From Planctomycetota bacterium (lineage in GTDB: Bacteria > Planctomycetota > Planctomycetia > Pirellulales > UBA1268), in assembly GCA_046090525.1 (NCBI GenBank), contig JBJTAA010000342.1:1-42005 (forward strand): a DNA stretch of 42,005 nucleotides. Reading direction: 5' to 3'. The notes under the pieces were generated by a model that was not told where the DNA came from, made no database searches, and saw only the letters and a program-made list of their open reading frames with translations. The position numbers and the translations under genes are program-made. Positions 2,432-42,005 of this stretch are shown one piece after another (within the stretch, counting starts at the first letter, position 1; each line of letters begins with the position of its first letter).

Positions 2432-2441
2432 GGATCCCGTC

Positions 2442-4277: not shown

Positions 4278-4288
4278 GCCCGGCGATG

Positions 4289-4735: not shown

Positions 4736-4771
4736 GCCGTCCGCTCCGCCTCGTTCCGCCGGGCACCCGTG

Positions 4772-17227: not shown

Positions 17228-19162
17228 CTACTCGCCGGCCGAGGCCTGCTCGCGGGCGAAGGCGAGGGCCTCCCGCATCCCCTCGGTCCGCAGCGGCTCC
17301 GGCACGTCCTCGATCACGGCGACGGCCTCGCCGAACCGCCCCGCCTCCACCAGCGCCATGGCGAGGTTGTGGCGGAGCTCGACCTGCTGTGGGTAGCGGT
17401 CGGCGGCGATCGCGAACAGGTCGACGGCGTCGTCGAGCCGGCCGCCCTGGGCGTAGGCCGAGCCCAGGTTCTGCAGCGTGGCCAGGCGGTTGGGATTCGC
17501 GGCCAACGCCCGCTCGAACGCGGCCGTGGCCGCGGGCAGATCGCCCAGTTCGAGTTCGGCGAGGCCCTCGAGCATGGCGACCGGCACGGCCAGCGGGTCG
17601 AGCGACTTCCAGGGGGTGGTGCCGCGCCGGGCGGCATCCCGCATCGCCCGCCAATCGCCGTCCCGCTGGGCACGGCGGGCATCCATCACCGCCCGCTCCT
17701 GGAAGACCGCCGCGGCGGCGTAGCCGACGCCGAGCGCGAGCGCCGCCATGACCGGCGGAGCGACGAGCCAGCCGGCGAGTCGCACTCGCCCCGCGGCGGC
17801 CGCGGGGCGCCCGGCGCGGGCCACGAGCACGACCACCGCCAGGTGCACCGCGAGCACGGCCTGGTGGCTGATGCGGTCGAGCGGAAAGTCGAGGCAGCTG
17901 AACACGAGATAGGCGACGAGCGCCCCGAGCGCGGCCAGGGCCAGCCGGGCGTCGGTGACGCTCGGATCGCCGGCGAGGACGCGGCGCACGCCCGCAAGCG
18001 CGAGCAGGAAGACGGCCGCGAAGGCGAGGAAGCCGGGCAGGCCATGCTCGGCGAGCACCTCGAGAAAGTCGTTGTGCGGGTGGAGCCAGTTGTCGCTCGC
18101 AAGATTCGAGAAGTCGCGGGCCGCGCCCGATTCCGGATCCCGCAGGTGTTCGTGCAGGCGGATCGTGAAGTTGCCCCCGCCGACTCCGGCGATCGGGTGG
18201 GCGGCGAACATCTCGGCCGCGATGCCCCAGACCATCGTCCGGCCGCCGTCGGTGGGGCCCTCCTGCTGGTGCGGCCGCGTGATCGCGAGCCGGTGGATCG
18301 CCCGCCCGATCGCGGTGTCGGTGAACGCGAGGCCGCCGAGGCCGGCCGCCGCGATCAGGAGGCCGACCAAGCCCGCGGCGACGCCACGGCAAAGTTGCGG
18401 TGACGCGCCAAGCGGCCGCCGGCGGCGGAGGAGCGCGATGCCAGAGAGCACCGCCGCCACGGCCAGGGCCAGCCACGCCGCCCGCGATTGGAGCACCACG
18501 AGCACCGCCGTCGCCGCCAGGGATGTGACCATGGCCACCGCCCGCCAGCCGCCGGCCAGTTCCACCGTCGCGCAGAGGCACCAGGGCAGGAGCAGGAGCA
18601 GATAGCCCGCGAACAGGTTGACGTTCGACATCATGCCCTCGAGGAAGGCCAGTTCGAGGTCGCGACGGCCGGGCAGGCCGGCCCGCGCAAGCGGCCAGAT
18701 CTCCCACGCGGCGACCCCGACGGCCACGAGCGTGGCGACGACCGCCGTCTCGAGCAGCCGCTCGCGCCACCGCGGGTGCAACGGCAGCACGAGCAGGCAG
18801 AGGCAGAGCACGAGGAACCAGCTCAGCGTCCGAAACACGTCGGTCAGCCCGGCCGACGCGTTCACGGCCGCGAGGAGCGAGAGGCTCGAGGCGGCGAGGA
18901 ACGCGCCCGCCGCGATCACCACCGGTTCGCTGAGCACCCCCCAGTCGAGCCGTCGCGCGATCGGGCGCGTGAAGAGCACGGCGGGCACGGCCACGAGCAG
19001 CCCCACGAGCAGGGCCAGGAGCCGCGGCAGCTGCGAGACGTCGTAGGCCGCCGGATCGACGACGACGTGGAGCGCGACGAGCACCGCGGCGAGCAGGCTC
19101 GTGGCGGCCAGCAGGCCGGCCCGCGCCGGCACGGCCTCGGACGGGATGGGGCGATCGGTCAT
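17228..19162 (-). CDS. O-antigen ligase (WaaL/Wzy_C)-family polytopic membrane protein fused to C-terminal TPR repeats (644 aa)
   Basis: About 10-12 TM helices and the Wzy_C signature region HPHNDFLEVLAEHGLPGFLAF. The C-terminal ~170 aa carry TPR-like repeats (AFERALAANPN..., LGSAYAQGGRLDDAVDLF...). Confidence 0.8.
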   Translation of the reverse strand: MTDRPIPSEAVPARAGLLAATSLLAAVLVALHVVVDPAAYDVSQLPRLLALLVGLLVAVPAVLFTRPIARRLDWGVLSEPVVIAAGAFLAASSLSLLAAVNASAGLTDVFRTLSWFLVLCLCLLVLPLHPRWRERLLETAVVATLVAVGVAAWEIWPLARAGLPGRRDLELAFLEGMMSNVNLFAGYLLLLLPWCLCATVELAGGWRAVAMVTSLAATAVLVVLQSRAAWLALAVAAVLSGIALLRRRRPLGASPQLCRGVAAGLVGLLIAAAGLGGLAFTDTAIGRAIHRLAITRPHQQEGPTDGGRTMVWGIAAEMFAAHPIAGVGGGNFTIRLHEHLRDPESGAARDFSNLASDNWLHPHNDFLEVLAEHGLPGFLAFAAVFLLALAGVRRVLAGDPSVTDARLALAALGALVAYLVFSCLDFPLDRISHQAVLAVHLAVVVLVARAGRPAAAAGRVRLAGWLVAPPVMAALALGVGYAAAAVFQERAVMDARRAQRDGDWRAMRDAARRGTTPWKSLDPLAVPVAMLEGLAELELGDLPAATAAFERALAANPNRLATLQNLGSAYAQGGRLDDAVDLFAIAADRYPQQVELRHNLAMALVEAGRFGEAVAVIEDVPEPLRTEGMREALAFAREQASAGE

Positions 19163-20135: not shown

Positions 20136-21170
20136 TCAGGAGGGAAGCGTCGTCGGCGAGGCGGTCTTGGGGAAGACGGCCGCCGCGGCCCAGCGGGCAT
20201 CGGGCTCCGGTGTCGTCGCCGCGCCGGCGGCCAGCGAGCGGACGATCTGACGGGTGGCCACGGCCGCGAACCTGAGCCAGACGCCCGCCACGACCAGGCC
20301 GAACAGGCCGGCGGGATACGAGTCGCGGAAGTGCTTGCGGTAGAAGCGGATCATGCCCCGGTGCTTGTGCCATTCGACGGCCAGTGGCCGCGAGCGGCCG
20401 CACATGCCGCGATGGTGCACCGCCGGCGCATCGGGCACGAACAGGATCCGCCAGCCCGCGGCCCGGAACCGCATGCACAGGTCCAGGTCCTCGCAGTGAA
20501 GGAAGAAGCCCTCGTCCCAGGGACCGACCTCGGCGAACGCCTCGCGCGAGACCATCGTCAGGGCGCCCGAGACGGCCTCCACCTCGACGGGCTCGCTCGG
20601 CAGCGGCTCGCGATGGAGGCAGAAGTCGGAGAGCAGCCGCGGGGCCAGCCACGCGAGCCGGCCCAAACCGAAGCCGCGGACGAAGGCTCGCCAGGGCGTC
20701 GGCACGCTTCGCCGCGCGCCTCCCTGCTCCTGGCCGAAGGCGTCGGTCAGCAGCCCGCCGGCCATGCCCACACGGCCGCCCGGACGCATGACCCGTTCGA
20801 GCGCGGCGAGCGAGCCGCTGCCGAGAATGCAGTCGGGATTGAGAAACAAGAGCAGCGGTTCCGTGGCCAGCTCGGCCCCACGATTGCAGCCTGCCGCGAA
20901 CCCCGTGTTCACCCGCGACCGCACGACCCGCAACCGCGGATTGGTCGCGAACCGGCTGACGACGGCCTCGAAGGGGCCGATCCGCGAGGCATTGTCGACG
21001 AGGATCACCTGCCGCGCCTGGGAGAGGGCTGCCTCGAGGCAGTCGGCCAGCAGGCGGCCGGCATCGTGGTTGACGATCACCACGCTCACTGGTGCCAGCG
21101 ACGGGTCTTCCGGATCGGTCAGCGGCCCCGCCGGGTGAGGCCGAAGTCCATCGCGCTCAGGATTCGCCAT
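20136..21170 (-). CDS. Glycosyltransferase family 2
   Basis: VSVVIVNHDAGRLLADCLEAAL and VDNASR are GT2 motifs. An ATG 21170 start would overlap the upstream gene by 52 nt. The alternative GTG 21089 start avoids the overlap and fits third-position G/C better. Confidence 0.82.
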   Translation of the reverse strand: MANPERDGLRPHPAGPLTDPEDPSLAPVSVVIVNHDAGRLLADCLEAALSQARQVILVDNASRIGPFEAVVSRFATNPRLRVVRSRVNTGFAAGCNRGAELATEPLLLFLNPDCILGSGSLAALERVMRPGGRVGMAGGLLTDAFGQEQGGARRSVPTPWRAFVRGFGLGRLAWLAPRLLSDFCLHREPLPSEPVEVEAVSGALTMVSREAFAEVGPWDEGFFLHCEDLDLCMRFRAAGWRILFVPDAPAVHHRGMCGRSRPLAVEWHKHRGMIRFYRKHFRDSYPAGLFGLVVAGVWLRFAAVATRQIVRSLAAGAATTPEPDARWAAAAVFPKTASPTTLPS

Positions 21171-22120
21171 GACGAGATTCGGCGCGCGGCCTGCACGGTC
21201 CGTCGCTTCTGCCAGCACCTGCCCAGCCCCGACCAAGCATCCCACTTCGCCCGGGCGAACGCACGTCCCCGGCCCCGGCAGCCGAGAATCACTCCTGTAA
21301 AGATAGATTGGGAAAGATGCGCAAGCAAAACCGGGGCTAAAAGCGGTCCCGGGGTGTCTTTGAGCACGGTCCAGGTGAGGTTCCTGTGGCCAAGGTAGGT
21401 CGCCAGGTTTCCCTCCGAACTCGCCCCGCCGATATGGGCGACCACGGCGTCGGGCACGTAGCGGGCGCGATGGCCGGCGAGCCGCAGGCGGTAGCCGAGG
21501 TCCACGTCTTCCCCGAAGCAGAAGTAGTCCTCGTCGAAGCCGCCCGCCTCGACCAGCGCGGCCCGCCGGTAGAGCGCGGCCGCCGCACAGGCGGAGAAGA
21601 TCTCGCGCGCCGCCAGATCGGCGGGCTCGAGCCGGCGGCCGTGTCCCTCGCGCCAGGCCAGGCCGCTGACGTGCCAGCGGTCACCGATCCCGTCGAGGAC
21701 GCCCTCGTAGCCGGCGAGCATCTGCCGCGAACCGAACGCGGCGCACTCGGGGTGAGCGGCGGCGGCGGCGACGAGGCACCCGAGCCAGCCCGGCTCGGGG
21801 AAGGCGTCGGGATTGAGCAGGGCCACGAAGTCGGTCGTGGCCATGGCGAGCCCCCGGTTCGAGGCCGCGGCGAACCCGAGGTTCCGCCCGGCTGCGTCGA
21901 ACGTCGTCCGGCCCACGAGGGCCGGCGTCGCACCAACGAGCGTCCGCGCGGCCGCGAGCGACTCGTCGCTGCTGGCGTTGTCGATGACGACGATCCGCTC
22001 GGGCAGCGACGACTGGCGGGCCAGGCACTCCAGGCACCGCGGCAGGTGCTCGCCGCCGTTGAAGTTGACGATCACGACGGTGACCGGGGCCGTGCCAGCC
22101 GGTTCGACGACCTCATTCAT
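21119..22120 (-). CDS. Glycosyltransferase family 2 (333 aa)
   Basis: VTVVIVNFNGGEHLPRCLECL, VVIDNASSD, FAAASNRG and the ED-containing FCFGEDVDLGYRL are present. The start was moved to ATG 22120. Confidence 0.85.
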   Translation of the reverse strand: MNEVVEPAGTAPVTVVIVNFNGGEHLPRCLECLARQSSLPERIVVIDNASSDESLAAARTLVGATPALVGRTTFDAAGRNLGFAAASNRGLAMATTDFVALLNPDAFPEPGWLGCLVAAAAAHPECAAFGSRQMLAGYEGVLDGIGDRWHVSGLAWREGHGRRLEPADLAAREIFSACAAAALYRRAALVEAGGFDEDYFCFGEDVDLGYRLRLAGHRARYVPDAVVAHIGGASSEGNLATYLGHRNLTWTVLKDTPGPLLAPVLLAHLSQSIFTGVILGCRGRGRAFARAKWDAWSGLGRCWQKRRTVQAARRISSWRILSAMDFGLTRRGR

Positions 22121-22168: not shown

Positions 22169-22286
22169 CGAAAGGGGACATCCGCCGCTGCCTCCTGCGG
22201 CCCTCCCCGACAGCCCCCCCATCCCGAGCCGGAACACCGTGCCAGGCCTCGAAACCACCGCCCCGCCGCCACGGGAGATCGCGACG

Positions 22287-23096
22287 GTGAGGCAGGCGGG
22301 CGGAGACCCGGCTCCGGCCGACACGGCCTGGACCGATTGGTGGGCGGGCACGCGCCGCTTCGATCTCTGGAGCACGCTCGCCTGGTACGACATCGTGCTC
22401 CGGTATCGGCGGTCGATCATCGGTCCGCTGTGGATCACGCTCAGCATGGGAGCGATGCTGCTGGGCATGGGCCCCCTCTACGCCGCGCTGTTCGACGTGC
22501 CGCTGGCACGCTTCTACCCGCATCTGGCCCTCGGGATCATCTTCTGGAACTTCTTCAGCACGACGCTCAACGACGGCTGCCAGGTGTTCATCACCGCCGC
22601 CGCCTACCTCAAGCAGGGCCCGGTGCCACGGAGCGTGTTCGTGTGGCGGAGTCTGGCCCGCCACCTGTTCTTCCTCGCGCATCACGTCGTGCTCTATCTG
22701 CCCGTCGCCCTGTGGTCGGGCCTGGCCTGGAGCCCGCGGATGCTGCTGGCCATCCCGGGGCTGCTCGTGGTGATCGTCAATCTGCACGCCCTGTCGATCA
22801 CGCTGGGCCTGCTCTCGGCCCGCTTCCGGGACGTCCCCAACATCGTGTCGAGTTCGCTGCAACTGTTGATGTTTTTGACGCCGGTGTTCTGGTTCCCGGA
22901 GAAGCTGCCCGAGCGTTCGCGATTCATCCTCTACAACCCGCTCGCCCAGCTGCTCGACGTGCTGCGGGTGCCGCTCCTGGGCGGCCTGCCGGCGCCGGGC
23001 ACCCTGTGGTTCCTGGGCTACTTCACGACGCTCAACGTGGCCGTGGCGGCGTACCTCTACGCCACCTGCCGCCGCCGGGTCGTTTACTGGGTGTGA
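22287..23096 (+). CDS. wzm: ABC-2 type polysaccharide export permease (Wzm/TagG/KpsM-like), ~269 aa
   Basis: LAWYDIVLRYRRSIIGPLWITL is the ABC-2 N-terminal signature, followed by 6 TM helices. GTG 22287 was chosen. The upstream part of track ORF 21813..23096 is antisense to the GT2 gene. Confidence 0.85.
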   Translation: MRQAGGDPAPADTAWTDWWAGTRRFDLWSTLAWYDIVLRYRRSIIGPLWITLSMGAMLLGMGPLYAALFDVPLARFYPHLALGIIFWNFFSTTLNDGCQVFITAAAYLKQGPVPRSVFVWRSLARHLFFLAHHVVLYLPVALWSGLAWSPRMLLAIPGLLVVIVNLHALSITLGLLSARFRDVPNIVSSSLQLLMFLTPVFWFPEKLPERSRFILYNPLAQLLDVLRVPLLGGLPAPGTLWFLGYFTTLNVAVAAYLYATCRRRVVYWV

Positions 23097-23103
23097 CACG
23101 ACC

Positions 23104-23838
23104 ATGGCCCTGCTCGCCCTCGACGACGTGTCGGTCGATTACCCGATCTTCGGGGCCCACGCCGACTCGCTCAAGACCACGCTCACCAGCGCCGTCACCG
23201 GTGGGCGGATCGGCCGGGAAACGGGGGTGACCGTGGTGCAGGCGGTGCGGAACGTCTCGCTCGAGCTTCGGGACGGCGACCGGCTGGGCATCGTGGGGCA
23301 CAACGGCGCCGGCAAGTCCACGCTCTTGCAGACGCTCGCGGGCGTCTACCCGCCGACCCGCGGCCGCTACCGCCGCGAGGGCTCGCTGGCGAGCCTCGTC
23401 AACCCGATGCTCGGCATCGAGCGGGAGGCGACCGGCTACGAGAACATCATGATCCGCGGCCTCGTGCTGGGCATGAGCCGCCGGGCGATCCGGGCGATCA
23501 CGCCGGAGATCGCCGAGTTCAGCGGGCTGGGCGAGTATCTCGACATGCCGGTGCATACCTACTCCACCGGCATGCTGATGCGGCTGACCTTCGCGATCAC
23601 GACGAGCGTGCGGGCCGACATCCTCCTGATGGACGAGTGGCTTTCGGTGGGCGATGCCCAGTTCCGGCAGGTCGCCGAGCGGCGGATCCGCGAGATGGTC
23701 TCCCACAGCGGAATCCTCGTGATCGCATCACATTCGGCCGACCTCATCGCCCGCGAGTGCAACCGGGTGATCGAGCTGTCGCACGGGTCCGTGATCCGGG
23801 ACGAGCCGTTGGCTGAGTTCGTGCCGGAGGAACGCTAG
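23104..23838 (+). CDS. wzt: Polysaccharide export ABC transporter ATP-binding protein (Wzt/TagH/KpsT-like), 244 aa, NBD only
   Basis: Walker A GHNGAGKST, signature YSTGMLMRL and Walker B ILLMDEWLSVGD are present. At this length there is no C-terminal carbohydrate-binding extension. Confidence 0.93.
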   Translation: MALLALDDVSVDYPIFGAHADSLKTTLTSAVTGGRIGRETGVTVVQAVRNVSLELRDGDRLGIVGHNGAGKSTLLQTLAGVYPPTRGRYRREGSLASLVNPMLGIEREATGYENIMIRGLVLGMSRRAIRAITPEIAEFSGLGEYLDMPVHTYSTGMLMRLTFAITTSVRADILLMDEWLSVGDAQFRQVAERRIREMVSHSGILVIASHSADLIARECNRVIELSHGSVIRDEPLAEFVPEER

Positions 23839-25289
23839 CGGCGGCCCGACGACAGCGCCGCCTCGATGCGGCCGGTCATGTCCTGCCGCAGGGACTCGTG
23901 GATTGCCCGCTCCGCCACGAGCTGGGCGACCAGCTCGTCCCGCTCTCCCACCGCCGACGCGGCGGTTCGTTCGAGCTGTTCGCCTCGCGCTCGGGCCTCC
24001 GCCAGGTCCACCGCGAGCCGCTTGACCGCGACGTCGCGTTCGGTCCGCTCGGCCTCGAGTTGGGCGACGGCGCGGTCGGCACGTGATGCGGCTTCGGCGA
24101 GGGCCGACTCCAGTCCCGCCATGGCGCGGACTCGTTCGGCCCGCTCGGCCTCACGTTGCTCGACGGCCCGATGCCTTTCAGCCCGTTCGGCCTCGAGTTG
24201 CACGGCGAGACGGTCTCGTTCGGCCCACTCGGCCTCGAGTTGCATCGCGAGACGGTTTCGTTCGGCCCGCTCGGCCTCCAACTGCTTCTCGACCGCCGCC
24301 GCTCGGGCAGCGCAGGTGTCGGCGCGGTTGGTCGCAGCGAGCCGCTCGGCCCGCTCGGCCGCCAGTTCGCCGGCCAACTGCTCGACCTTCCGCTGCGCCT
24401 CGGCCTCCCGGACCGCGAAGCCGCCCCGCTCGGCGACGGCACGGCAGGCCGCGGCCCATTCGATCAGGGCGGCCGCGGCGACTTCCGTCGGCCGTGAGAG
24501 CCCGCGGCCGAGAGCCACCGGTGCCGCCGGTGCCGCCGGGGCGGCAAGCCGCAGGATCTCGGCCTGGAGATCACGCACCTCCGGCCTCAGGGCGATCACG
24601 ATTCCCTCGCGGTGGCCCGGTTGTCCGGTCACGAGCAGCCCGGGCTCGTACGTGGCCGCGGGCGTGGCGAGAGGCACGGCGAGCAGTTCTGCCGCGCGCG
24701 ATACGACGCCGGCTGGATCGGTGACGACCTGCGACAGATCCACGACGATCGTGCGGTCGCCGTGTCGACGGGCGAAGTCGAGGATCCTGCGGTTGTAGGC
24801 AACCCAGACGTCCACCGCGTGCCGCGGATTGACGACGAACGCGGTGTCGCCCCGGCGCAGCAGCGAGTCGCACACCTCTGCGGGCGGCCGCACCACGAAC
24901 AGCCAGCGGGCCTCGGGCACGAGTTCGGCCCAGAAGTCGAGAAACAGGGTCGTCCGCGGGTCCTTCCAGCCCCATGGGCGGCCCGCCGCCCGGCGGCGGC
25001 GCACCATGTCGGCCGCCTGCGCCCGTGCCGCTGCCGGCACCTCGATGGCCTCCTGGCAGGTGAAGCCCTCCATCGACAGGCCGTTGCCTGCGAGGATCCG
25101 CTGATGCAGGTTGTAGAACTCGAGGTCCTCGAAGTGGCCCCGCGGATTGCCCGCCGCGGCCGGCATCAACTCGTCACCCAGATGGACCCCCGCCGTGGCG
25201 AGCAGCGAAGCCGTCAGCGACGTGCCTGACCGGTGCATGCCGGTGATCACGAGAGCCGGCGGGCGATCGGCATCGAGCGGCTCTGCCAT
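23835..25289 (-). CDS. Sulfotransferase-domain protein with ~180-aa C-terminal repetitive coiled coil (484 aa)
   Basis: The N-terminal PAPS-loop-like motif is VITGMHRSGTSLTASLL, followed by NPRGHFED. The C-terminus is heptad-like and Ala/Glu/Arg-rich, with QLEAERAER units. The start was moved to ATG 25289. Confidence 0.8.
   Translation of the reverse strand: MAEPLDADRPPALVITGMHRSGTSLTASLLATAGVHLGDELMPAAAGNPRGHFEDLEFYNLHQRILAGNGLSMEGFTCQEAIEVPAAARAQAADMVRRRRAAGRPWGWKDPRTTLFLDFWAELVPEARWLFVVRPPAEVCDSLLRRGDTAFVVNPRHAVDVWVAYNRRILDFARRHGDRTIVVDLSQVVTDPAGVVSRAAELLAVPLATPAATYEPGLLVTGQPGHREGIVIALRPEVRDLQAEILRLAAPAAPAAPVALGRGLSRPTEVAAAALIEWAAACRAVAERGGFAVREAEAQRKVEQLAGELAAERAERLAATNRADTCAARAAAVEKQLEAERAERNRLAMQLEAEWAERDRLAVQLEAERAERHRAVEQREAERAERVRAMAGLESALAEAASRADRAVAQLEAERTERDVAVKRLAVDLAEARARGEQLERTAASAVGERDELVAQLVAERAIHESLRQDMTGRIEAALSSGRR
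24117..24284 (-). repeat. Four tandem 42-bp (14-aa) coding repeats inside the coiled coil
   Basis: The units are QLEAERAERNRLAM / QLEAEWAERDRLAV / QLEAERAERHRAVE / QREAERAERVRAMA. A fifth dispersed unit, QLEAERTERDVAVK, lies downstream. Confidence 0.85.
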
Positions 25290-25526
25290 AGGAAGCGGCC
25301 TCGGTCTCGGGCGGGCGGCGCGGATTCTTCCACCGGAGCAGCAGGCCGTCAACGCCGTCCGCGCCCGGCACCCGGCTCACCCGGTCGACGTGGGCTGCCC
25401 GTCTTGCCCGCCTCACCGGGCCGGCCGTGATCTTGACCCGCGGCGGCAGGGCGCGGTACCTCCCCTGCCGATTCTGCCGGGTCGGCCCCGCCTGCCCGCG
25501 CGGCCACCGCCAGGAGGCGCACCCGC

Positions 25527-28500
25527 ATGCCGGACCAAGAGCAGCCCGACCTGCGCCGCTACTTTGATCGGCGCTGGTATGTCGCCACCTACGGCGCGGG
25601 AAGGCGGCGGATCCGCTGGTGGCCATGGCACTACTACCGCCGCCGCGGCTGGCGAAAGGGCCATGCTCCCTGTCAGCTCTTCGATGCGGCGTGGTACCTC
25701 GACCGGAATCCCGACGTGCGGGCCGCCGGTCTCGACCCGCTCGCGCACTACGCCGGGCATGGCTGGCGCGAGGGGCGTCAACCACACCCGCTCTTCGATC
25801 CGTCGTGGTATGCCGCGCGCTACGCCGATGTCGGAGCCGCCGGCGTCGAGCCGCTGTTGCACTATCTCACCGTCGGCTGGCGGGAGGGCCGGCAGCCCCA
25901 TCCGGCCTTCGATGCAGCCGGCTACCTGGAGGCGAACCCCGACGTGGCGGCCGCCGGACTCGAGCCGCTGGCCCACTATCTCGCCTACGGTTGGCGGGAG
26001 GGTCGCCAGCCGCATCCCTTGTTCGACGGCGGCTGGTACATCGACCGCAATCCCGACGTCGCGCTCGCGGGGCTCGAGCCGCTCACGCATTTTCTGGGCA
26101 CTGGCTGGCGGGAACGGCGGGAGCCCTGCCCGTCGTTCTCGCTGGCCGCGTACGTGGCCGCCCGGCCCCGGCCGCTCGACGCGGGTGTGAATCCGTTCGT
26201 CCACTTTCTCGTCACCGAATACGACCCGGGCGATCGCGAGTCCCGAGCCGCCGTGGCGGCCCGCTACGCATCGGCCGCCCGACCGGCCGCCGTGGCGGCT
26301 GCCGCGCCGGCCGTCGGGCCGGCCAACCGCGGGCACGTGCGGGCGATCGCGATGTACCTGCCGCAGTTCCACCGCGTGCCGGAAAACGACGCCTGGTGGG
26401 GGGAGGGATTCACCGAGTGGACCAACGTCCGGCGGGCCCGCCCCATGTTTTCCGGCCACCAGCAGCCTCACGTGCCGCATCGCGACGTCGGCTACTACGA
26501 CCTGGACGACGAGACGGTGCTCGAGCGGCAGGCCGAGATGGCCCGCCGCCACGGCATCCATGGGTTCTGCTTCTATCACTATTGGTTTGACGGTCGCCGC
26601 ATCCTCGAGAAGCCGGTCGAAAGGCTGCTGGCGAGTGGCCGGCCCGACTTCCCCTTCTGCCTCTGTTGGGCCAACGAGAACTGGACGCGGACGTGGGACG
26701 GGCTCGAACGCGAGGTGCTCCTCGGGCAGCGGCACTCGCCCGACAGTGACGAGCGGTTTCTGCGCGACCTGCTGCCGGCCCTGCGCGACCCGCGGTACAT
26801 CACGGTCGAGGGGCTGCCGCTCGTGGCCGTCTACCGGCCGGGGCTGCTCGCCGAGCCCAGGGCCACCGCCGACCGCTGGCGGCAGATCGCCGAGCGGGAG
26901 GGCCTGCCGGGGCTGCACTTGGCCGCCGTGCACTCCTTCGACCAAGCCGACCCACGCACGTACGGCTTCGACGCGGCGATCCAGTTTCCCCCGCTCCAGA
27001 TTCCCGCGGCGAACCTGCGCGAGACGGGCCTCGCCGGCATGGACCGGCGGTTTCGGGGCGGGGTGCTCGATTACCGCGAGGCGCTCTGTCATTCGCTCGC
27101 CCGGCCGACGCCCGACTATCCGCTCTACCGGGGCGTGATGCCCGGCTGGGACAACACGCCGCGCCGGATGGAGCGGGCCACGGCCTGGGTCAACTCGTCG
27201 CCTGGTCTGTACGGCCGCTGGCTGCGGGGCGTCGTCGAGCAGATGCAGCGGGAGCAGCCGGCCGAACGGCAGCTCGTGTTCATCAACGCCTGGAACGAAT
27301 GGGCCGAGGGCGCCCACCTCGAGCCGGACGAGCGGCACGGCTACGCGATCCTCGAGGAGACGGCGGCGGTGCTCCTCCCCCAGCCGGCCGGAGCCCAGGT
27401 CGCCGCCGCGGCGGCGACCGCGCTGCCACGGGCCCGGGACCGCCATCCGACGGTCGTCGGTCACCGCCGGGCACGCCTGCGCACCCTGTTTGGCGGCGAC
27501 GTGCCCGAGGCCAGTCATGCCTTCCTGCTCGACCATGTCGCGGCGGTCGCCCGGCTGGCCGCGACCGGTCATCGGCTGACGCTCTGCGACGGCGTGCCCG
27601 TCTGCCAGGGCGACACCGAAACGATCCCTCTCGACGATCCCGCGGCGCTCTCCGCCAGCCTGCTCGCAGCGGATCGCGCCGGTGAACGCCCCTTCTGTTT
27701 CGTGCTGCTGCAGTTCAACCAGCCGGAGGTCACGGCCCGCTGCGTCGCCTCGCTGCGGCGGCTCTCCACGGTCACTCGCCGGGTGCACGTGGTGATCGTG
27801 GACAACGGCTCCGAGCCGGCGACGGTGGCCCGCACGCGGGAGTTGTTCACGGGCCTGGCCGACGTGACGCTCCTGTTCACCGGTGCGAACCTCGGGTTCG
27901 CCAAGGGCAACAACGTCGGCTACGCGCACGCCCGCGATGTCCTCGTGGCCGATTTCATCGCCGTCATCAACAACGACACGGTCGTCGGCGATCCCGCCTT
28001 CGTGGAGCGCTGCCTGGACGCGTTCCGGGAACGCCCCTGGTCGGTGCTCGGGCCCGATATCGTCACGCCCGACGGTCGGCACGAGAACCCGTGGAACGAC
28101 CATGTCTACGAGGCCGGCGAGTGGGAGGCGCTCGAAGACCTGTTCCGCCGGCAGCGGGCCGCCTGGCAGGCGGGCGGCCCGGCGGAGTTTCGCCGGCTCG
28201 GCTCCCGCAGTCCCGACGCGCCGACGCTCTGCGATCCGATCCTGCAGGGGGCGGCCTACGTCTTCTCACCCGTGTTCACCGCCGAACATGCGCGGGCCTT
28301 CGACGAGCGCACGTTTCTCTACGGCGAGGAGTTCCTGCTCGCGGTCGACTGTCTGCTCGCCGGGCACCTCGCCGTCTACGACCCACGGATCACGATCGTC
28401 CACGAGGAGGGCGTCTCCACCGCACGCGTGCCCGAGCGGCGGAAGCTCGCCCTCGGATACGACGCGGTCGTCGAGACGGCGGCGATCTGCCGGACGCGCC

Positions 28501-29855
28501 TCGAGCGACACGAAGCGGCCGCCCGCGGCATGTGGCTCACGCCCGACTCCCCCGCCCTCGCGGTCCTCACGGGAGACGGCCGGACCCATGTCCTCGTGGA
28601 TCTCCTGTTCTGCCAGCCCGGCTTCCACGGGGGCGGCGAGTACGGCAAGGCCGTGTTCAACGCCCTGGTCGCCGCGGCCGCGAGGCGCGGCGACGTGCAG
28701 CTCTGGGTCGCGCTCGATCCCAAGCTCTTCATCGACGGCTGGGTGTGGGAGGCGTGCCGCGAGCATGCGGTCAACGTCGTCGCCGTCACGTCGTACGCCG
28801 AGATCACGCGGCTCGTGAATCGGGGCCTGTTCGGCTCGTTTTTCGCGCCGGCGATCGTCGTCTACACGGGTTACGAGTACCAGCAGCGGATCGGGGGCGA
28901 GCTCGGCTTGGCCTCCGGGCCGACGCGGGTGATCGGCACGCTGCTCGACGTGCGCGACCTGGAGATGGCGCGGGATTGGGAGCGGATCGCGACGGCCCGC
29001 CGCGAGGCGGGCTGCCGCCACGAGCGGTCGCTCTCCCCGGCCGCATGGCAGGCCACACGGGAGCGGCAGCAGGCCCAGGCCCGTGACCTGCTGGGGATGT
29101 ATCGCGGCATCTGTGGCCACGCCGCCGTCGACACGCTGGTGACGATCTCCGCCTACTCGGCCGCGTCGCTCCGGGAACGGGTCGGCACCAGTCGGCCCGT
29201 CGAGGTGCTCTTCCCGCCGGCCAAGAATCGGACGGCTCCCGAAGCCTTCGGGGTGCCGGGGGTCGAGGCGGGTCGCGACCAGTTCGGCCTGGTGGTGAAT
29301 GCCGGCCGGATCGAGAAGAACGCCGCCACGGCGGTGGCCGCCTTCGACCGCCTCTGCTCCGATCCGGGCTTCGCGGCGGAGCATCCACGGCTGAAACTCG
29401 TGCTCACCGGGATCGACGGCCTCGACGGTCTCGGCCTCGAGCCGCTCGCCAATCCCGCCCGGTTCGTGGCCCTGCCGCATCTGCCGCCGGAACGGCTCGA
29501 ATACCTCTATCGCGAGGCGCGATTCCTGCTCTACCCGTCGTTCAACGAGGGTTTTGGATACCCGCCGCTCGAGGCGATGACCTACGGCACCCCGAGTGTC
29601 GTCGCCGACAACACGGCAGTGCCCGAGGTCTTGGGCCCCGCGGCGATCCCCTGCGACCCGTTCGCCCCCGCGTCGGTCATGCAGGCGATCCGCACCGTTC
29701 TGGCCGCCCCGCCCACCGCGGCGGAACTCCACGACCAGCTCGCGACCGTGGCCGGCCGACAGGATGCCGACTTGGCGCGGCTCGTCGCGCTCGTCTGCGG
29801 CCCGGTCCCGGCCCTGGAACCCGTGGGCGCCACCCGGTCGCTGCTAGCCGCATGA
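25527..29855 (+). CDS. Giant multidomain glycosyltransferase (1442 aa): N-terminal 38-aa repeats, then WbsX-like domain, GT2 domain and GT4/GT1 domain
   Basis: AGGAGG lies 9 nt upstream of ATG 25527. The WbsX-type motif is IAMYLPQFHRVPENDAWWGEGFTEWTNV. GT2 motifs are FCFVLLQFNQPEVTARCVASL, VVIVDNGSEP and FAKGNNVG. The C-terminal GT4 motif is EGFGYPPLEAMTYGTPSVV. Confidence 0.9.
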   Translation: MPDQEQPDLRRYFDRRWYVATYGAGRRRIRWWPWHYYRRRGWRKGHAPCQLFDAAWYLDRNPDVRAAGLDPLAHYAGHGWREGRQPHPLFDPSWYAARYADVGAAGVEPLLHYLTVGWREGRQPHPAFDAAGYLEANPDVAAAGLEPLAHYLAYGWREGRQPHPLFDGGWYIDRNPDVALAGLEPLTHFLGTGWRERREPCPSFSLAAYVAARPRPLDAGVNPFVHFLVTEYDPGDRESRAAVAARYASAARPAAVAAAAPAVGPANRGHVRAIAMYLPQFHRVPENDAWWGEGFTEWTNVRRARPMFSGHQQPHVPHRDVGYYDLDDETVLERQAEMARRHGIHGFCFYHYWFDGRRILEKPVERLLASGRPDFPFCLCWANENWTRTWDGLEREVLLGQRHSPDSDERFLRDLLPALRDPRYITVEGLPLVAVYRPGLLAEPRATADRWRQIAEREGLPGLHLAAVHSFDQADPRTYGFDAAIQFPPLQIPAANLRETGLAGMDRRFRGGVLDYREALCHSLARPTPDYPLYRGVMPGWDNTPRRMERATAWVNSSPGLYGRWLRGVVEQMQREQPAERQLVFINAWNEWAEGAHLEPDERHGYAILEETAAVLLPQPAGAQVAAAAATALPRARDRHPTVVGHRRARLRTLFGGDVPEASHAFLLDHVAAVARLAATGHRLTLCDGVPVCQGDTETIPLDDPAALSASLLAADRAGERPFCFVLLQFNQPEVTARCVASLRRLSTVTRRVHVVIVDNGSEPATVARTRELFTGLADVTLLFTGANLGFAKGNNVGYAHARDVLVADFIAVINNDTVVGDPAFVERCLDAFRERPWSVLGPDIVTPDGRHENPWNDHVYEAGEWEALEDLFRRQRAAWQAGGPAEFRRLGSRSPDAPTLCDPILQGAAYVFSPVFTAEHARAFDERTFLYGEEFLLAVDCLLAGHLAVYDPRITIVHEEGVSTARVPERRKLALGYDAVVETAAICRTRLERHEAAARGMWLTPDSPALAVLTGDGRTHVLVDLLFCQPGFHGGGEYGKAVFNALVAAAARRGDVQLWVALDPKLFIDGWVWEACREHAVNVVAVTSYAEITRLVNRGLFGSFFAPAIVVYTGYEYQQRIGGELGLASGPTRVIGTLLDVRDLEMARDWERIATARREAGCRHERSLSPAAWQATRERQQAQARDLLGMYRGICGHAAVDTLVTISAYSAASLRERVGTSRPVEVLFPPAKNRTAPEAFGVPGVEAGRDQFGLVVNAGRIEKNAATAVAAFDRLCSDPGFAAEHPRLKLVLTGIDGLDGLGLEPLANPARFVALPHLPPERLEYLYREARFLLYPSFNEGFGYPPLEAMTYGTPSVVADNTAVPEVLGPAAIPCDPFAPASVMQAIRTVLAAPPTAAELHDQLATVAGRQDADLARLVALVCGPVPALEPVGATRSLLAA
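25680..26135 (+). repeat. Four well-conserved tandem 114-bp (38-aa) coding repeats (degenerate copies flank them, ~25563-26249)
   Basis: The unit is FDxxWYxxxNPDVxAAGxEPLxHYxxxGWREGRQPHPx, read four times in register in the translation. Confidence 0.85.
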
Positions 29856-30706
29856 TGTTCGAACTCTTCGCGACGGAACTCGCCGAAATTGATCGCCGGC
29901 TGGCGGCGGCCCCGGACCTGCCGCTCCCCGAGGCGATGCGGACGGTGCCGCTCGAGGTTTTCGCCGAGCTCCTGCTCGGGGTGCCCGGTCACCTCCCGGC
30001 GGTGGCGGCCCGACTGCCGTCGATGCCCGATGACCAGGTGCAGCGCAACTGGACCGGCAACCACGGCATGGCGCTCATGCACCAGTCGCTCGCGTTCGTC
30101 CGGACGCTGCTCGGCCTCTGGGGTCGGCACTCCGGGCGGGGCATCGACACGGCCAGCGTCCTCGATTTCGGCTGCGGTTGGGGCCGGCTGCTGCGGCTGC
30201 TCTTGCACGTGGTGCCGGAGGGCATGCTCTACGGCGTGGATTCCTGGGACGAATCGATCCGGCTGTGCCGGGAGAGCGGCCTCAGGTGCCGGCTGGCGGT
30301 GAGCGACGAGGTGCCGACGACGCTGCCGTTTCCCGGCCCCTTCGACCTGATCTTCGCGTTCAGCGTCTTCACGCACTTGAGCGAGCGCACGGCCCGCACG
30401 GTGCTCGCGACCCTGCGCCGGGTCGTGCGCGACGACGGGCTGCTCTGCCTGACGATCCGGCCGGTGGAGTACTGGGCGCACCGGGGTGGTGCGGGGTGTG
30501 AGGACCTCGCCGCCCGGCATCGCGCGACGGGATTCGCCTTCGCGCCACACCAACGGCGGCCGGCGGCCGACGGCGACATCACCTACGGCGACACGTCGCT
30601 CACGCTCGGTGCCCTGGAGCGGCTGGCGCCCGGCTGGCGGATCAGTCGGGTCGAATGGACGGGCCACGATCCGCTGCAGGTGATCGTGGCCCTCGTGCCG
30701 ACGTGA
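29852..30706 (+). CDS. Class I SAM-dependent methyltransferase (284 aa)
   Basis: Motif I is VLDFGCGWGRLLRLL and motif II-like is FDLIFAFSVFTHL. Its ATG overlaps the preceding stop (ATGA at 29852-29855). Confidence 0.85.
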   Translation: MMFELFATELAEIDRRLAAAPDLPLPEAMRTVPLEVFAELLLGVPGHLPAVAARLPSMPDDQVQRNWTGNHGMALMHQSLAFVRTLLGLWGRHSGRGIDTASVLDFGCGWGRLLRLLLHVVPEGMLYGVDSWDESIRLCRESGLRCRLAVSDEVPTTLPFPGPFDLIFAFSVFTHLSERTARTVLATLRRVVRDDGLLCLTIRPVEYWAHRGGAGCEDLAARHRATGFAFAPHQRRPAADGDITYGDTSLTLGALERLAPGWRISRVEWTGHDPLQVIVALVPT

Positions 30707-30714
30707 GGTCAGCC

Positions 30715-41563: not shown

Positions 41564-41706
41564 CGAGAGAGGGCCCGCCGCGAGGGGCGGGATCACAAGG
41601 GGCGACGTGCACGGGCGACCACCGCTCGGGGGCCCGCAAGGAAAGCCTACCTCGCGGATTTCACCGCTGCGGCACGGGGGTTGCCGGCCCGCTGCGGTCC
41701 CCGGGT

Positions 41707-42005
41707 TCACCGGGCCGGAAACAGCGGCGCTGCCGCGTCACGCGGCGACAGGACCGGCTCGGCCGTGAGCGGCCAACGAATCGCGAGCGTCGGGTCGTCC
41801 CAGCGGATGCACTTCTCACAGCCGGGCGCATAGAACGCAGTCGTCTTGTAGAGCACCTCGGCGGTGGCGGAGAGCACGAGGAACCCGTGGGCCAGCCCCT
41901 CGGGCACCCACAGCTGGCGCCGGTTTTCCGCCGACAACTCGACCCCCACCCAGCGGCTGAAGGTCGGCGACCCGGGGCGGATGTCCGCGGCCACGTCGAA
42001 GATCG
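41707..42005 (-). CDS. rfbC: dTDP-4-dehydrorhamnose 3,5-epimerase, C-terminal part (5' end beyond window)
   Basis: ...VAADIRPGSPTFSRWVGVELSAENRRQLWVPEGLAHGFLVLSATAEVLYKTTAFYAP...IRWDDP matches the RmlC cupin core. The reading frame stays open to the window edge. Confidence 0.93.
   Translation of the reverse strand, partial: IFDVAADIRPGSPTFSRWVGVELSAENRRQLWVPEGLAHGFLVLSATAEVLYKTTAFYAPGCEKCIRWDDPTLAIRWPLTAEPVLSPRDAAAPLFPAR

What the first reader, a model, noticed from the sequence alone, without database searches (positions are those of the whole stretch)
23835..25289. Sulfotransferase fused to a long coiled coil: possible sulfate-capping chain terminator and molecular ruler for the ABC-dependent glycan
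Seen in sequence: the N-terminal ~250 aa form a sulfotransferase-type domain (GMHRSGTS PAPS-loop-like motif). The C-terminal ~180 aa form an uninterrupted Ala/Glu/Arg heptad-rich coiled coil. The gene sits between wzt and the giant polymerase-like GT, divergent from the latter.

Established knowledge: in ABC-dependent O-antigen pathways, chain length can be fixed by a terminator enzyme whose coiled coil acts as a physical ruler. WbdD kinase/methyltransferase in E. coli O9a is one example. The WbbB-type GT with a beta-Kdo terminator in Klebsiella O12 and Raoultella is another.

Inference: this protein may be an analogous ruler whose capping chemistry is sulfation. I am not aware of that having been described.

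Counterpoint: in terminator-coupled systems, Wzt usually carries a C-terminal carbohydrate-binding module that recognises the cap. The Wzt here (244 aa) has none.
Basis: partly seen in the sequence, partly recalled or inferred. Interest (0 to 1): 0.7.

Follow-up and report, generated by a model that had tools for sequence, protein, structure and literature searches.

The report
Sulfotransferase on a coiled-coil stalk
A planctomycete gene encodes a sulfate-adding enzyme on a roughly 30 nm helical stalk, always next to a giant sugar-polymerising enzyme, in the layout bacteria use to cap surface sugar chains and set their length; sulfate would be a cap chemistry not yet described.

Summary
Window 23835-25289 (-) encodes a 484-aa protein. 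Residues 11-249 form a PAPS-type sulfotransferase (ST) domain (Pfam PF13469; all top Foldseek hits are sulfotransferases). Residues 268-480 model as one continuous helix with significant heptad periodicity. The gene converges on a 244-aa Wzt without a carbohydrate-binding module (CBM). It diverges from a 1442-aa WbsX-GT2-GT4 protein.

The terminator/ruler reading is partly supported, by comparative evidence only.
- In 11 of 12 planctomycete contexts the gene lies directly divergent from the giant glycosyltransferase (GT).
- Among close homologs, every indel lies in the helix, and helix length runs in 14/28/42-aa series.
- A C-terminal motif of about 30 aa is conserved and specific to this family.
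- In many cyanobacteria the same ST family is fused as ST–coiled coil–GT2–GT2(–GT4). This is the WbbB-type layout. It sits beside a Wzt that does carry a CBM and beside a WbdD-like methyltransferase–coiled-coil protein.

Evidence against:
- No planctomycete Wzt has a CBM.
- wzm/wzt is not always adjacent.
- A second ST–GT2–coiled-coil protein lies in the window.
- No glycan structure or enzyme activity is known.

I found no published sulfate terminator. Verdict: a new variant of a known kind, still a hypothesis.

The parts
23835..25289 (-). ST-CC gene, 484 aa: sulfotransferase domain, linker, long helix, conserved C-terminal motif
24543..25259 (-). PAPS-type sulfotransferase domain, aa 11-249. 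Carries GMHRSGTS (5'-phosphosulfate-binding loop), GHFED, and R134...S142 (3'-phosphate motif).
   Evidence: Pfam PF13469 E 2.5e-11. AF2 pLDDT above 90. Foldseek top hits 4gox, TPST1/2, CurM ST, Stf1, NDST, 3-OST. Invariant columns.
24489..24542 (-). Ala/Pro-rich flexible linker, aa 250-267
   Evidence: pLDDT 56-62, with aa 262-264 below 50
23850..24488 (-). Continuous 213-residue helix, aa 268-480. About 31-32 nm if straight. Heptad-periodic, coiled-coil-like stalk.
   Evidence: AF2 secondary structure. Heptad z=4.9. Local periodicity with coherent phase. The length in nm is an inference from about 0.15 nm rise per residue.
24133..24278 (-). 42-bp tandem repeat, 3.5 copies. Encodes the 14-aa (two-heptad) unit QLEAERAERxRLAx, aa ~338-386, inside the helix.
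   Evidence: TRF, 80% matches; translation
23841..23954 (-). Conserved C-terminal motif, aa 446-483: GERDELVAQLVAERAIHESLRQDMTGRIEAA plus a short basic tail. Candidate docking or nucleation site.
   Evidence: Conserved across homologs whose helices range from 43 to 298 aa. A profile search of 1.84 billion representatives finds only this family, plus one weak match.
25290..25526 (.). 237-bp divergent intergenic region between the ST-CC gene and the giant GT gene
   Evidence: The same divergent arrangement, about 200-240 bp, occurs in L001-L004, L084 and L085.
25527..29855 (+). Giant 1442-aa putative polymerase: basic/aromatic N-terminus, repeats of about 38 aa of NPDV..HY..GW.EGR.P type, then WbsX, GT2 and GT4 domains
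   Evidence: Pfam WbsX E 4e-133, GT2, GT4. N-terminus conserved in partner genes.
29852..30706 (+). SAM-dependent methyltransferase; its start overlaps the giant GT stop. Homologous to the methyltransferase domain of the cyanobacterial methyltransferase–coiled-coil proteins.
   Evidence: Pfam; tblastn 25-36% identity and E 2e-8
30655..31437 (+). Conserved 260-aa protein of unknown function, found downstream of the giant GT in related loci
   Evidence: No Pfam hit and no PDB sequence hit. Homologs at 70-81% identity in L001, L002, L004, L005.
23104..23838 (+). Wzt ABC-transporter ATPase, 244 aa, without a C-terminal CBM
22239..23096 (+). Wzm ABC-2 permease. Likely GTG start at 22239 (285 aa), by comparison with the L002 ortholog.
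21119..22120 (-). GT2 glycosyltransferase, likely 333 aa, divergent from wzm
17228..19162 (-). Wzy_C (O-antigen-ligase family) membrane protein with C-terminal TPR repeats. Candidate ligase for the exported glycan.
   Evidence: Syntenic in L002, L004, L005.
39194..41710 (-). Second sulfotransferase of the same family, fused as ST–GT2–coiled coil. Likely start at Met50, position 41563.
   Evidence: 35% identity to the target ST, E 4e-19. Sequence. GT2 by Pfam. C-terminal heptad z=21.

Best explanation
The protein is the stand-alone ('split') form of a widespread module in which a PAPS-dependent glycan sulfotransferase (ST) sits at the far end of a long coiled-coil stalk.

Proposed mechanism:
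1. The conserved C-terminal end of the stalk docks at or near the membrane-proximal N-terminal region of the divergently encoded 1442-aa WbsX-GT2-GT4 polymerase.
2. This holds the sulfotransferase about 30 nm from the site of polymerisation.
3. Only lipid-linked chains long enough to reach it have their non-reducing end sulfated.
4. Sulfation there blocks further extension and so sets chain length.
5. The finished glycan leaves through Wzm/Wzt.

The geometry is that of WbdD/WbdA, with sulfate replacing methyl or phospho-methyl. It lacks the Wzt-CBM export checkpoint.

Shown here: the ST fold and motifs, the long heptad-periodic helix, the conserved pairing with the giant GT, the fusion of this ST family to polymerase GTs through coiled coils in other phyla, helix-restricted length changes in heptad multiples, and the family-specific C-terminal motif.

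Inferred: the acceptor is the polymer's non-reducing terminus; sulfation stops elongation; stalk length sets modal chain length; the C-terminus docks on the giant GT.
For: - ST identity: Pfam PF13469, an AlphaFold2 model and Foldseek hits that are sulfotransferases only, and invariant PAPS-binding motifs.
- Stalk: a 213-residue single helix with heptad z=4.9.
- Genomic coupling: the gene is directly divergent from the giant WbsX-GT2-GT4 gene in the window and in L001-L006, L008, L078, L084 and L085. In L086 it lies in the divergent operon. wzm/wzt are adjacent in the window and in L002, L004 and L005.
- Fusions: about 20 cyanobacterial loci encode ST–spacer–beta domain–GT2–GT2–GT4 proteins of 1700-2500 aa, and about 10 encode ST–spacer–GT2–GT2 proteins of about 1000 aa. 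The spacers tested (13 fusions) are 108-416 aa, Pro/Gly-poor and mostly strongly heptad-periodic: z 2.2-27, except z 0.9 in L068.
- Classical hallmarks in those loci: a Wzt with a Wzt_C CBM (PF14524, E 2e-26) and a methyltransferase–coiled coil–amphipathic-tail protein resembling WbdD.
- Natural split forms occur in L069 and L075, and in Eremiobacterota L053.
- In the fusions the spacer diverges faster than the ST or GT parts (48% against 72% identity). Its length is nevertheless identical, 239 aa, across Microcoleus and Tychonema.
- Among planctomycete homologs with at least 80% identity, all 130 pairwise gaps fall in the helix and none in the ST domain. Helix lengths form series with 14/28/42-aa steps.
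- Published rule: the terminating enzyme lies at the distal end of a coiled coil, and the coiled coil is 'a characteristic marker' of this strategy (PMC11231755). The WbdD geometry is described in PMC5082667.
Against: - No Wzt in any planctomycete locus carries a CBM. Every experimentally terminated system described in PMC11231755 has one.
- wzm/wzt are not within 10 kb in L001, L003, L084, L085 and L086.
- Helix length among homologs paired with near-identical giant GTs runs from 43 to 298 aa. A ruler would then have to give very different chain lengths.
- The window holds a second ST of the same family, fused to a GT2 and a coiled coil. Coil-less STs of this family exist in Obscuribacterales loci. 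Sulfation may therefore not be confined to a cap.
- The C-terminal motif is highly charged, with no hydrophobic amphipathic helix like the SKFWK-type junction of the fusions. Membrane or partner docking is a guess.
- The heptad signal in this protein is only moderate.
- No structure, composition or sulfate content is known for any planctomycete glycan from such a locus. No acceptor specificity can be read from the fold.
Confidence: 0.5

Rival explanations
1. The protein is a glycan-decorating sulfotransferase, not a terminator. It sulfates internal residues of the polymer, perhaps a heavily sulfated and methylated polysaccharide. The coiled coil only oligomerises the enzyme or scaffolds it onto the biosynthetic complex. 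Chain length is set otherwise, for example by the transporter:polymerase ratio as in CBM-less Klebsiella O2a.
For: - Wzt has no CBM. PMC11231755 describes CBM-less O2a-type systems in which stoichiometry sets length, and a terminal pyruvate in O1 that is not needed for length control.
- Two sulfotransferases of the same family lie in one window.
- Coil-less family members sit next to WbsX and Wzt genes in Obscuribacterales.
- Helix length is very variable, 43-298 aa.
- Cyanobacterial extracellular polysaccharides are commonly sulfated along the chain (PMC4390846).
Against: - An enzyme that must modify every repeat unit gains nothing from being held 100-400 residues of rigid helix away from the GT modules in the same polypeptide. 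That is nevertheless the dominant architecture of this ST family.
- In every characterised case that layout marks a terminator.
- Many relatives do have a Wzt CBM.
- Indels that preserve the heptad register, and spacer length held constant despite sequence drift, suggest that length itself is under selection.
Confidence: 0.32
2. The acceptor is not the polymer. The enzyme sulfates a protein tyrosine (TPST/RaxST-like), a lipid, or the lipid-linked primer, and the stalk serves some other positioning role.
For: Foldseek and Pfam place the domain closest to polyketide-synthase 'activating' sulfotransferases and to tyrosylprotein sulfotransferases, as well as to carbohydrate STs. The fold does not reveal the acceptor.
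Against: The gene is invariably coupled to large glycosyltransferases. The coupling is a direct fusion in cyanobacteria, within Wzm/Wzt loci across three or more phyla. No candidate peptide substrate or PKS genes lie nearby.
Confidence: 0.08
3. The C-terminal region is a monomeric single alpha-helix or a low-complexity repeat with no structural role, and its length variation is neutral tandem-repeat slippage.
For: - The region is rich in Ala, Glu and Arg.
- i to i+4 Glu-to-Arg/Lys pairs are mildly enriched, z=2.1.
- Global periodicity is weak on a Kyte-Doolittle scale.
- A DNA tandem repeat is present.
Against: - Charged residues make up only about 39% (D+E+R+K), far below ER/K single helices as I recall them (own knowledge).
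- The peak at period 3.5 is specific, z=4.9.
- Independent clades use repeat units of 14, 21, 28 and 42 aa, all multiples of 7.
- The helix is always capped by a conserved C-terminal motif.
Confidence: 0.1

Closest known systems
WbdD (E. coli O8/O9a, K. pneumoniae O3/O5): methyltransferase or kinase+methyltransferase terminator with a coiled-coil ruler, partner of the WbdA polymerase
   Same: [quoted passage not shown]
- It is a separate polypeptide from a multi-GT polymerase.
- It is encoded in a wzm/wzt cluster.
- Stalk length is of the same order: about 20 nm in WbdD against about 31 nm modelled here.
   Different: - The catalytic domain is a PAPS sulfotransferase with no sequence relation to WbdD.
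- There is no recognisable amphipathic membrane helix at the C-terminus.
- Wzt lacks the CBM that reads the cap.
- The oligomeric state is unknown; WbdD is a trimer.
WbbB (K. pneumoniae O12, Raoultella terrigena) and ORF6 of K. pneumoniae O7: terminator–coiled coil–polymerase GTs in one polypeptide
   Same: Cyanobacterial relatives of this ST have exactly this order: terminator-position enzyme, coiled coil, then GT2-GT2(-GT4). They sit beside a Wzt with a CBM. The window protein is the same module split at the junction between coil and polymerase.
   Different: Here the ST-CC and the polymerase are separate genes. The distal enzyme is a sulfotransferase rather than a beta-Kdo transferase (GT99) or a methyltransferase-kinase. 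The polymerase has a WbsX domain.
Uncharacterised cyanobacterial ST–coiled coil–GT2–GT2–GT4 proteins (for example Microcoleus asticus IPMA8, locus L054 9950-15322)
   Same: The ST family is the same: about 40% identity over the ST domain, with the GMHRSGTSL and WGWKDPR signatures. A heptad-periodic spacer follows the ST, and the proteins sit in a Wzm/Wzt context. A homologous methyltransferase is present.
   Different: - The ST is fused to the GTs.
- The spacer ends in a conserved SSKFWK-type motif instead of the planctomycete ERAIHESLRQDMTGRIEAA motif.
- Wzt has a Wzt_C CBM.
- The methyltransferase carries its own coiled coil.
Structurally characterised PAPS sulfotransferases: OLS/CurM ST (4gox, 4gbm), TPST1/2, mycobacterial Stf0/Stf1/Stf9, NDST, 3-OST
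   Same: They share the fold and the PAPS-binding motifs.
   Different: Identity is only 10-21%. None of the matched chains has a coiled-coil stalk (target lengths), and none, to my knowledge, is linked to an ABC-transporter glycan polymerase. The acceptor cannot be transferred by homology.

Membership tests
PAPS-dependent sulfotransferase superfamily (Pfam Sulfotransfer_3, PF13469) | Profile match above the curated threshold | tested here: met
   44.7 bits against a cutoff of 27, E 2.5e-11, aa 11-207
PAPS-dependent sulfotransferase superfamily (Pfam Sulfotransfer_3, PF13469) | Sulfotransferase fold (P-loop-like alpha/beta core) | tested here: met
   AF2 pLDDT above 90 over the domain. All 33 PDB hits with E<=1e-3 are sulfotransferases.
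PAPS-dependent sulfotransferase superfamily (Pfam Sulfotransfer_3, PF13469) | 5'-phosphosulfate-binding loop and 3'-phosphate-binding Arg/Ser motif conserved | tested here: met
   H19, R20, S21, S24, R134, D141 and S142 are invariant in 40 homologs. G51-H52-F53-E54 are conserved at 90% or more, and D55 is invariant. Assigning these residues to the motifs is by analogy (own knowledge).
PAPS-dependent sulfotransferase superfamily (Pfam Sulfotransfer_3, PF13469) | Sulfo-transfer from PAPS to an acceptor | not testable with these tools
   Needs an enzyme assay
Coiled-coil chain terminator / molecular ruler of ABC-transporter-dependent glycan assembly (WbdD/WbbB type) | Extended coiled coil in the terminator-bearing protein | tested here: met
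   213-residue continuous helix; heptad z=4.9. Oligomerisation was not tested.
Coiled-coil chain terminator / molecular ruler of ABC-transporter-dependent glycan assembly (WbdD/WbbB type) | Modifying enzyme at the end of the coil distal to the polymerase | tested here: met
   The ST is N-terminal. In fused relatives the order is ST–coil–GTs. In the window the polymerase is the divergent neighbour.
Coiled-coil chain terminator / molecular ruler of ABC-transporter-dependent glycan assembly (WbdD/WbbB type) | Encoded with wzm/wzt and the polymerising GTs | tested here: met
   Met in the window and in L002, L004, L005. In five other planctomycete contigs wzm/wzt are not within 10 kb.
Coiled-coil chain terminator / molecular ruler of ABC-transporter-dependent glycan assembly (WbdD/WbbB type) | Wzt carries a C-terminal CBM that recognises the terminal cap | tested here: not met
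   Wzt is 244 aa with ABC_tran only. No Wzt_C-like sequence occurs in the window. Planctomycete orthologs are 246 aa. The feature is met in many cyanobacterial relatives.
Coiled-coil chain terminator / molecular ruler of ABC-transporter-dependent glycan assembly (WbdD/WbbB type) | C-terminal membrane-association and/or polymerase-recruitment region | tested here: inconclusive
   The C-terminal motif is strongly conserved and family-specific. It is charged, however, with low hydrophobic moment. One giant-GT homolog (P0129) has an N-terminal coil with QLEAERAAHESL repeats fused upstream of its NPDV repeats.
Coiled-coil chain terminator / molecular ruler of ABC-transporter-dependent glycan assembly (WbdD/WbbB type) | The modification is on the non-reducing terminal residue and stops elongation | not testable with these tools
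   No glycan structure is available
Coiled-coil chain terminator / molecular ruler of ABC-transporter-dependent glycan assembly (WbdD/WbbB type) | Coiled-coil length determines modal chain length | not testable with these tools
   Only indirect evidence: length changes in heptad multiples, and spacer length conserved despite sequence drift in Microcoleus/Tychonema.
Coiled-coil chain terminator / molecular ruler of ABC-transporter-dependent glycan assembly (WbdD/WbbB type) | Sequence homology of the catalytic domain to known terminators (WbdD methyltransferase/kinase, GT99, GT137) | tested here: not met
   Pfam, NCBIfam and PDB searches return only sulfotransferases. Any relationship is one of architecture, not descent.

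The most novel reading that the evidence does not exclude
O-sulfation is an unrecognised, phylogenetically widespread chain-terminating cap in ABC-transporter-dependent glycan assembly. It occurs in Cyanobacteria, Planctomycetota, Eremiobacterota and relatives. A dedicated ST family installs it from the tip of a coiled-coil ruler. The ruler evolves quickly by tandem duplication or loss of heptad-multiple units of 14 to 42 aa. In planctomycetes the module works without the Wzt-CBM export checkpoint, so termination and export proof-reading can be uncoupled.
Probability: 0.4. Interest if true: 0.78.

Novelty: new variant of a known kind. Interest (0 to 1): 0.62.

Why it matters
Chain termination with a coiled-coil ruler is the best-understood way bacteria make surface glycans of defined length. 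The known caps are methyl, phospho-methyl and Kdo, all worked out in Enterobacteriaceae.

A sulfate cap would add a new chemistry. It would extend the mechanism to environmentally dominant phyla, Cyanobacteria and Planctomycetota, whose envelope glycans are largely uncharacterised. It would also give a genetic handle on bacterial sulfated glycans.

The hypothesis can be tested directly. Cultured cyanobacteria (Microcoleus, Tychonema, Coleofasciculus and others) carry the complete fused version, including a Wzt CBM that should bind the cap.

The natural length polymorphism of the helix in heptad multiples offers a ready-made series for testing the ruler idea. The CBM-less planctomycete form asks whether termination can work without export proof-reading.

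Tried and rejected
1. Actinobacterial origin, suggested by 71% GC. Rejected: the identical protein and the closest relatives come from Planctomycetota metagenome-assembled genomes.
2. Modular reuse of the C-terminal motif on other catalytic domains, such as methyltransferase–coil–motif, which would have shown cap swapping. A profile search of 1.84 billion representatives found only 18 hits. They are this ST family and its fragments, two repeat-protein false positives, and one giant-GT homolog with a motif-like coil. Not supported.
3. A global Kyte-Doolittle Fourier test for heptads gave z=1.2, because Ala is scored as hydrophobic in a 25% Ala sequence. I replaced it with a strong-hydrophobe vector, which gave z=4.9, and with local windows.
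4. A single alpha-helix (ER/K) reading. Charged content is too low, and the signal at period 3.5 is specific.
5. A separately encoded Wzt_C CBM, or PAPS-synthesis genes, in the window. None found.
6. PDB sequence search gave only a marginal hit, 4gox at E 0.006. Fold search was needed to settle the domain.
7. NCBIfam has no model for the protein.
8. Literature searches for a sulfate terminator, or for sulfotransferase plus coiled coil in Wzm/Wzt systems, found nothing. The Whitfield 2020 review is not in the searchable library, so absence from the literature is not proven.
9. Multimer modelling of the stalk, or of the ST-CC/giant-GT complex, is not possible with the monomer-only predictor.


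Full report
**1. The observation**

The ORF at 23835..25352 (-) is the only long frame in the region with the codon-position GC expected of a gene in this 71% GC window: 0.81/0.53/0.85. Homologs begin about 17 residues before the GMHRSG motif. The ATG at 25289, giving 484 aa, is therefore the start. The identical 484-aa sequence is deposited as 'MAG: sulfotransferase [Planctomycetota bacterium]' on a contig of exactly 42005 bp.

Pfam places a Sulfotransfer_3 domain at aa 11-207, with 44.7 bits against a cutoff of 27. NCBIfam has no model for the protein.

An AlphaFold2 model was built from 40 homologs and has mean pLDDT 84.6. It shows three parts:
- a compact alpha/beta domain, aa 12-249;
- a low-confidence Ala/Pro linker, aa 250-267;
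- one uninterrupted helix, aa 268-480.

Foldseek against the PDB returns only PAPS sulfotransferases at E<=1e-3: olefin-synthase and CurM ST, TPST1/2, Stf1/Stf9/Stf0, NDST and 3-OST. The PAPS-binding residues are invariant across the family.

The helix is A/E/R-rich with 3% Pro+Gly. Its strong hydrophobic residues show a specific periodicity of 3.5 residues, z=4.9, with nothing at neighbouring periods. Local windows keep a coherent phase along the whole helix. On a scale that scores alanine as hydrophobic the signal disappears. I therefore call the heptad character real but moderate.

The gene converges on wzt, and the two stop codons share one CTAG. It diverges from the 1442-aa WbsX-GT2-GT4 gene across 237 bp. 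Wzt is 244 aa with no CBM, and no Wzt_C-like sequence lies anywhere in the window.

**2. Anatomy seen through relatives**

At least 700 homologs exist, and those that carry a source name are from Planctomycetota. They share four parts:
- the ST domain;
- a short conserved 'AALxEW' segment;
- a helix that varies in both sequence and length;
- a strongly conserved C-terminal motif of about 30 residues, consensus ERxxLxAQLEAERxIHESLRQDMTGRIEAA, followed by a basic tail.

The distance between the two conserved anchors ranges from 43 to 298 residues. Among pairs at least 80% identical, all 130 alignment gaps lie in the helix and none in the ST domain or linker. Of these gaps, 64% are multiples of seven.

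Within lineages, helix lengths form arithmetic series with steps of 14, 28 or 42 residues. Examples are 195/209/223/237, 191/205/219 and 190/232/274. One pair differs by 21 residues. The window protein itself carries a 42-bp repeat in 3.5 copies, encoding a 14-residue unit. Independent repeat units that are all multiples of seven are what a register-sensitive coiled coil predicts. A neutral low-complexity tract does not predict this.

A profile of the C-terminal motif was searched against 1.84 billion representative proteins. It found only this family and its fragments, two repeat-protein false positives, and one 1729-aa homolog of the giant GT. That homolog has an N-terminal coil with four QLEAERAAHESL units placed directly upstream of its NPDV-type repeats and WbsX domain.

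**3. Genomic coupling**

In the window and in ten further planctomycete contigs (L001-L006, L008, L078, L084, L085), the ST-CC gene is directly divergent from a WbsX-GT2-GT4 gene of about 1360-1443 aa. In L086 the giant lies further along the divergent operon. A conserved protein of about 234-260 aa with no detectable family follows the giant in the seven contexts that extend that far.

wzm/wzt, a GT2, an epimerase-like gene and a Wzy_C/TPR ligase-like gene flank the pair in the window and in L002, L004 and L005. They are absent within 10 kb in five other contigs. The invariant unit is therefore ST-CC plus the giant GT. The transporter is linked only sometimes, and it never carries a CBM.

**4. 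Fusions in other phyla**

A scan of one genome per species found the same ST family, with the signatures GMHRSGTSL and WGWKDPR, in many Cyanobacteria, Obscuribacterales and an Eremiobacterota genome. Identity over the ST domain is 37-45%.

In Microcoleus asticus (L054) the genes run in this order:
- wzm;
- a 470-aa wzt with a Wzt_C CBM (PF14524, E 2e-26);
- a 509-aa methyltransferase–beta domain–coiled coil protein ending in an amphipathic SKFWKVRTAWF tail, which is the WbdD layout;
- a 1790-aa protein that reads ST, then 28-residue-repeat coiled coil, then an SSRWWK junction, a beta domain, GT2, GT2 and GT4.

About twenty cyanobacterial loci repeat this arrangement. About ten more have a shorter ST–coil–GT2–GT2 protein, next to a Wzt with a CBM (L011, L031, L033) or without one (L023, L029, L037). 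L069, L075 and the Eremiobacterota locus L053 have naturally split ST-CC proteins.

In the 13 fusions tested, the spacers are 108-416 residues long, poor in Pro and Gly, and mostly strongly heptad-periodic: z 2.2-27, except z 0.9 in L068. They diverge faster than the flanking domains, 48% against 72% identity. Their length is nevertheless identical across Microcoleus and Tychonema.

Of the 80 ST-bearing ORFs not cut by a contig end, 29 are GT fusions and 45 carry a tail of 80-450 residues. Only 6 have less than 80 residues after the domain.

The window's stand-alone methyltransferase (29852-30706) is homologous to the methyltransferase domain of the cyanobacterial methyltransferase–coiled-coil protein.

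The split in planctomycetes falls where the fusions join the coil to the polymerase part, at the SSKFWK-type junction. In L027 and P0129 that junction leads directly into NPDV repeats like those at the giant GT's N-terminus.

**5. Mechanism**

Published work on K. pneumoniae and E. coli states three things (PMC11231755; PMC5082667):
- an extended coiled coil is 'a characteristic marker' of chain-terminating assembly systems;
- the terminating enzyme always sits at the end distal to the polymerase;
- the coil sets chain length, with about 20 nm in WbdD.

This ST family has exactly that placement. It appears in cis, like WbbB or O7 ORF6, and in trans, like WbdD/WbdA.

The best reading is that the window protein holds a glycan sulfotransferase about 31 nm from the giant GT. 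That figure is an inference from 213 residues at about 0.15 nm each. Sulfation of the non-reducing end would then terminate chains that are long enough to reach it.

An enzyme meant to decorate every repeat unit would gain nothing from such a spacer. I give this reading 0.5.

The main rival is non-terminal sulfation with the coil acting only as a scaffold, at 0.32. Four things keep it open:
- every planctomycete Wzt lacks a CBM, the one defining feature that was tested and failed;
- wzm/wzt linkage is inconsistent;
- stalk length varies seven-fold beside near-identical giant GTs;
- a second family member in the window (39194-41710) has ST, GT2 and a strongly heptad-periodic C-terminal coil.

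A non-glycan acceptor is unlikely (0.08). A functionless helix is also unlikely (0.10).

**6. Novelty**

Eight full-text searches found no description of a sulfate terminator. They also found no sulfotransferase–coiled-coil protein in a Wzm/Wzt pathway. A 2024 review of polysaccharide sulfotransferases mentions none of the six terms searched: coiled coils, cyanobacteria, ABC transporters, planctomycetes, O-antigens or non-reducing ends.

One paper notes an unexplained sulfotransferase-domain gene between wzt and wbbB in Aeromonas salmonicida, whose known O-antigen has no sulfate.

The library lacks many subscription papers, so prior mention cannot be excluded.

The mechanism class is known. 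The chemistry, the taxa, the CBM-less form and the evolvable stalk are new. Verdict: a new variant of a known kind, supported by architecture and comparative genomics and untested biochemically. Interest 0.62.

Noticed in passing
window 39194-41710 (-): A second sulfotransferase of the same family: 35% identity to the target, E 4e-19, with GMHRSGTSL, WGIKDPR and RHPLEVADSL motifs. It is fused to a GT2 domain and to a C-terminal tandem-repeat coiled coil of about 200 aa (heptad z=21). Pfam misses its ST domain. It appears to form an operon with a GT4 gene (37587-39197) and an unknown gene (36334-37590). The locus may therefore hold two terminator-like modules, or make a multiply sulfated glycan.
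   Followed up: partly
L054 5941-15322 (Microcoleus asticus IPMA8), and about 20 similar cyanobacterial loci such as L046, L061, L063, L064, L071, L081, L083: A complete 'classical' terminator-type locus in cultured cyanobacteria. It contains Wzm, a Wzt with a Wzt_C CBM, a WbdD-like methyltransferase–coiled coil–amphipathic-tail protein, and an ST–coiled coil–GT2–GT2–GT4 protein of 1790 aa. I found no published description of it in the library searched.
   Followed up: partly
window 25527-26340 (N-terminus of the 1442-aa GT); also L027 11835-14198 and protein P0129: The giant GT begins with a basic/aromatic stretch (RRRIRWWPWHYYRRRGWRKG). About five repeats of about 38 aa follow, of the type F-D-x-x-W-Y-x-x-x-N-P-D-V-x-x-A-G-x-x-P-L-x-H-Y-x-x-x-G-W-x-E-G-R-x-P. 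No Pfam model covers them. The same repeats follow the coiled coil in a cyanobacterial fusion (L027) and in a coil-bearing giant-GT homolog (P0129). They are a candidate docking platform.
   Followed up: partly
window 30655-31437 (+): A 260-aa protein with no Pfam or PDB sequence match lies downstream of the giant GT. Homologs at 70-81% identity lie downstream of it in L001, L002, L004 and L005, and unannotated genes of similar size occupy the same position in L084 and L085. It is an unassigned core component of the module.
   Followed up: partly
window 36031-36243, inside ORF 34480-36324 (+): The C-terminus of this 614-aa protein of unknown function matches the 'mid' beta domain of the cyanobacterial methyltransferase–coiled-coil proteins (tblastn E 4e-7). 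By eye, a similar-looking domain is repeated after the coil in the ST–CC–GT fusions. It may be a glycan-binding module.
   Followed up: no
window 23835-23838: The convergent wzt and ST-CC genes end on one palindromic CTAG, which supplies TAG stop codons on both strands. No intergenic terminator is possible between them.
   Followed up: no
homologs P0002-P0060: Natural length polymorphism of the helix in steps of 14/28/42 aa among near-identical proteins from different metagenomes. The two main length series are offset by 4 residues (mod 7 = 6 and 2), which may reflect a stutter-like 4-residue indel. This suggests rapid, repeat-mediated tuning of stalk length.
   Followed up: yes
L041, L057, L070, L073 (Obscuribacterales): Two coil-less paralogs of the ST, about 330-345 aa each, occur per locus next to WbsX-domain and CBM-less Wzt genes. 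The family therefore also exists without a stalk.
   Followed up: no
window 500-5170: Unrelated genes at the 5' end. They comprise an AAA_16/STAND-like ATPase (500-2431) and an FtsK/SpoIIIE-like ATPase (2442-4277). An anti-sigma-factor-type kinase (HATPase_c_2, 4289-4771) and a STAS-domain antagonist (4772-5170) follow.
   Followed up: no
literature, PMC4483657: The ABC-dependent O-antigen cluster of Aeromonas salmonicida A450 has a 216-aa sulfotransferase-domain gene between wzt (438 aa) and wbbB. The authors found no sulfate in the known O-antigen structure. A low-abundance terminal sulfate might have been missed.
   Followed up: no
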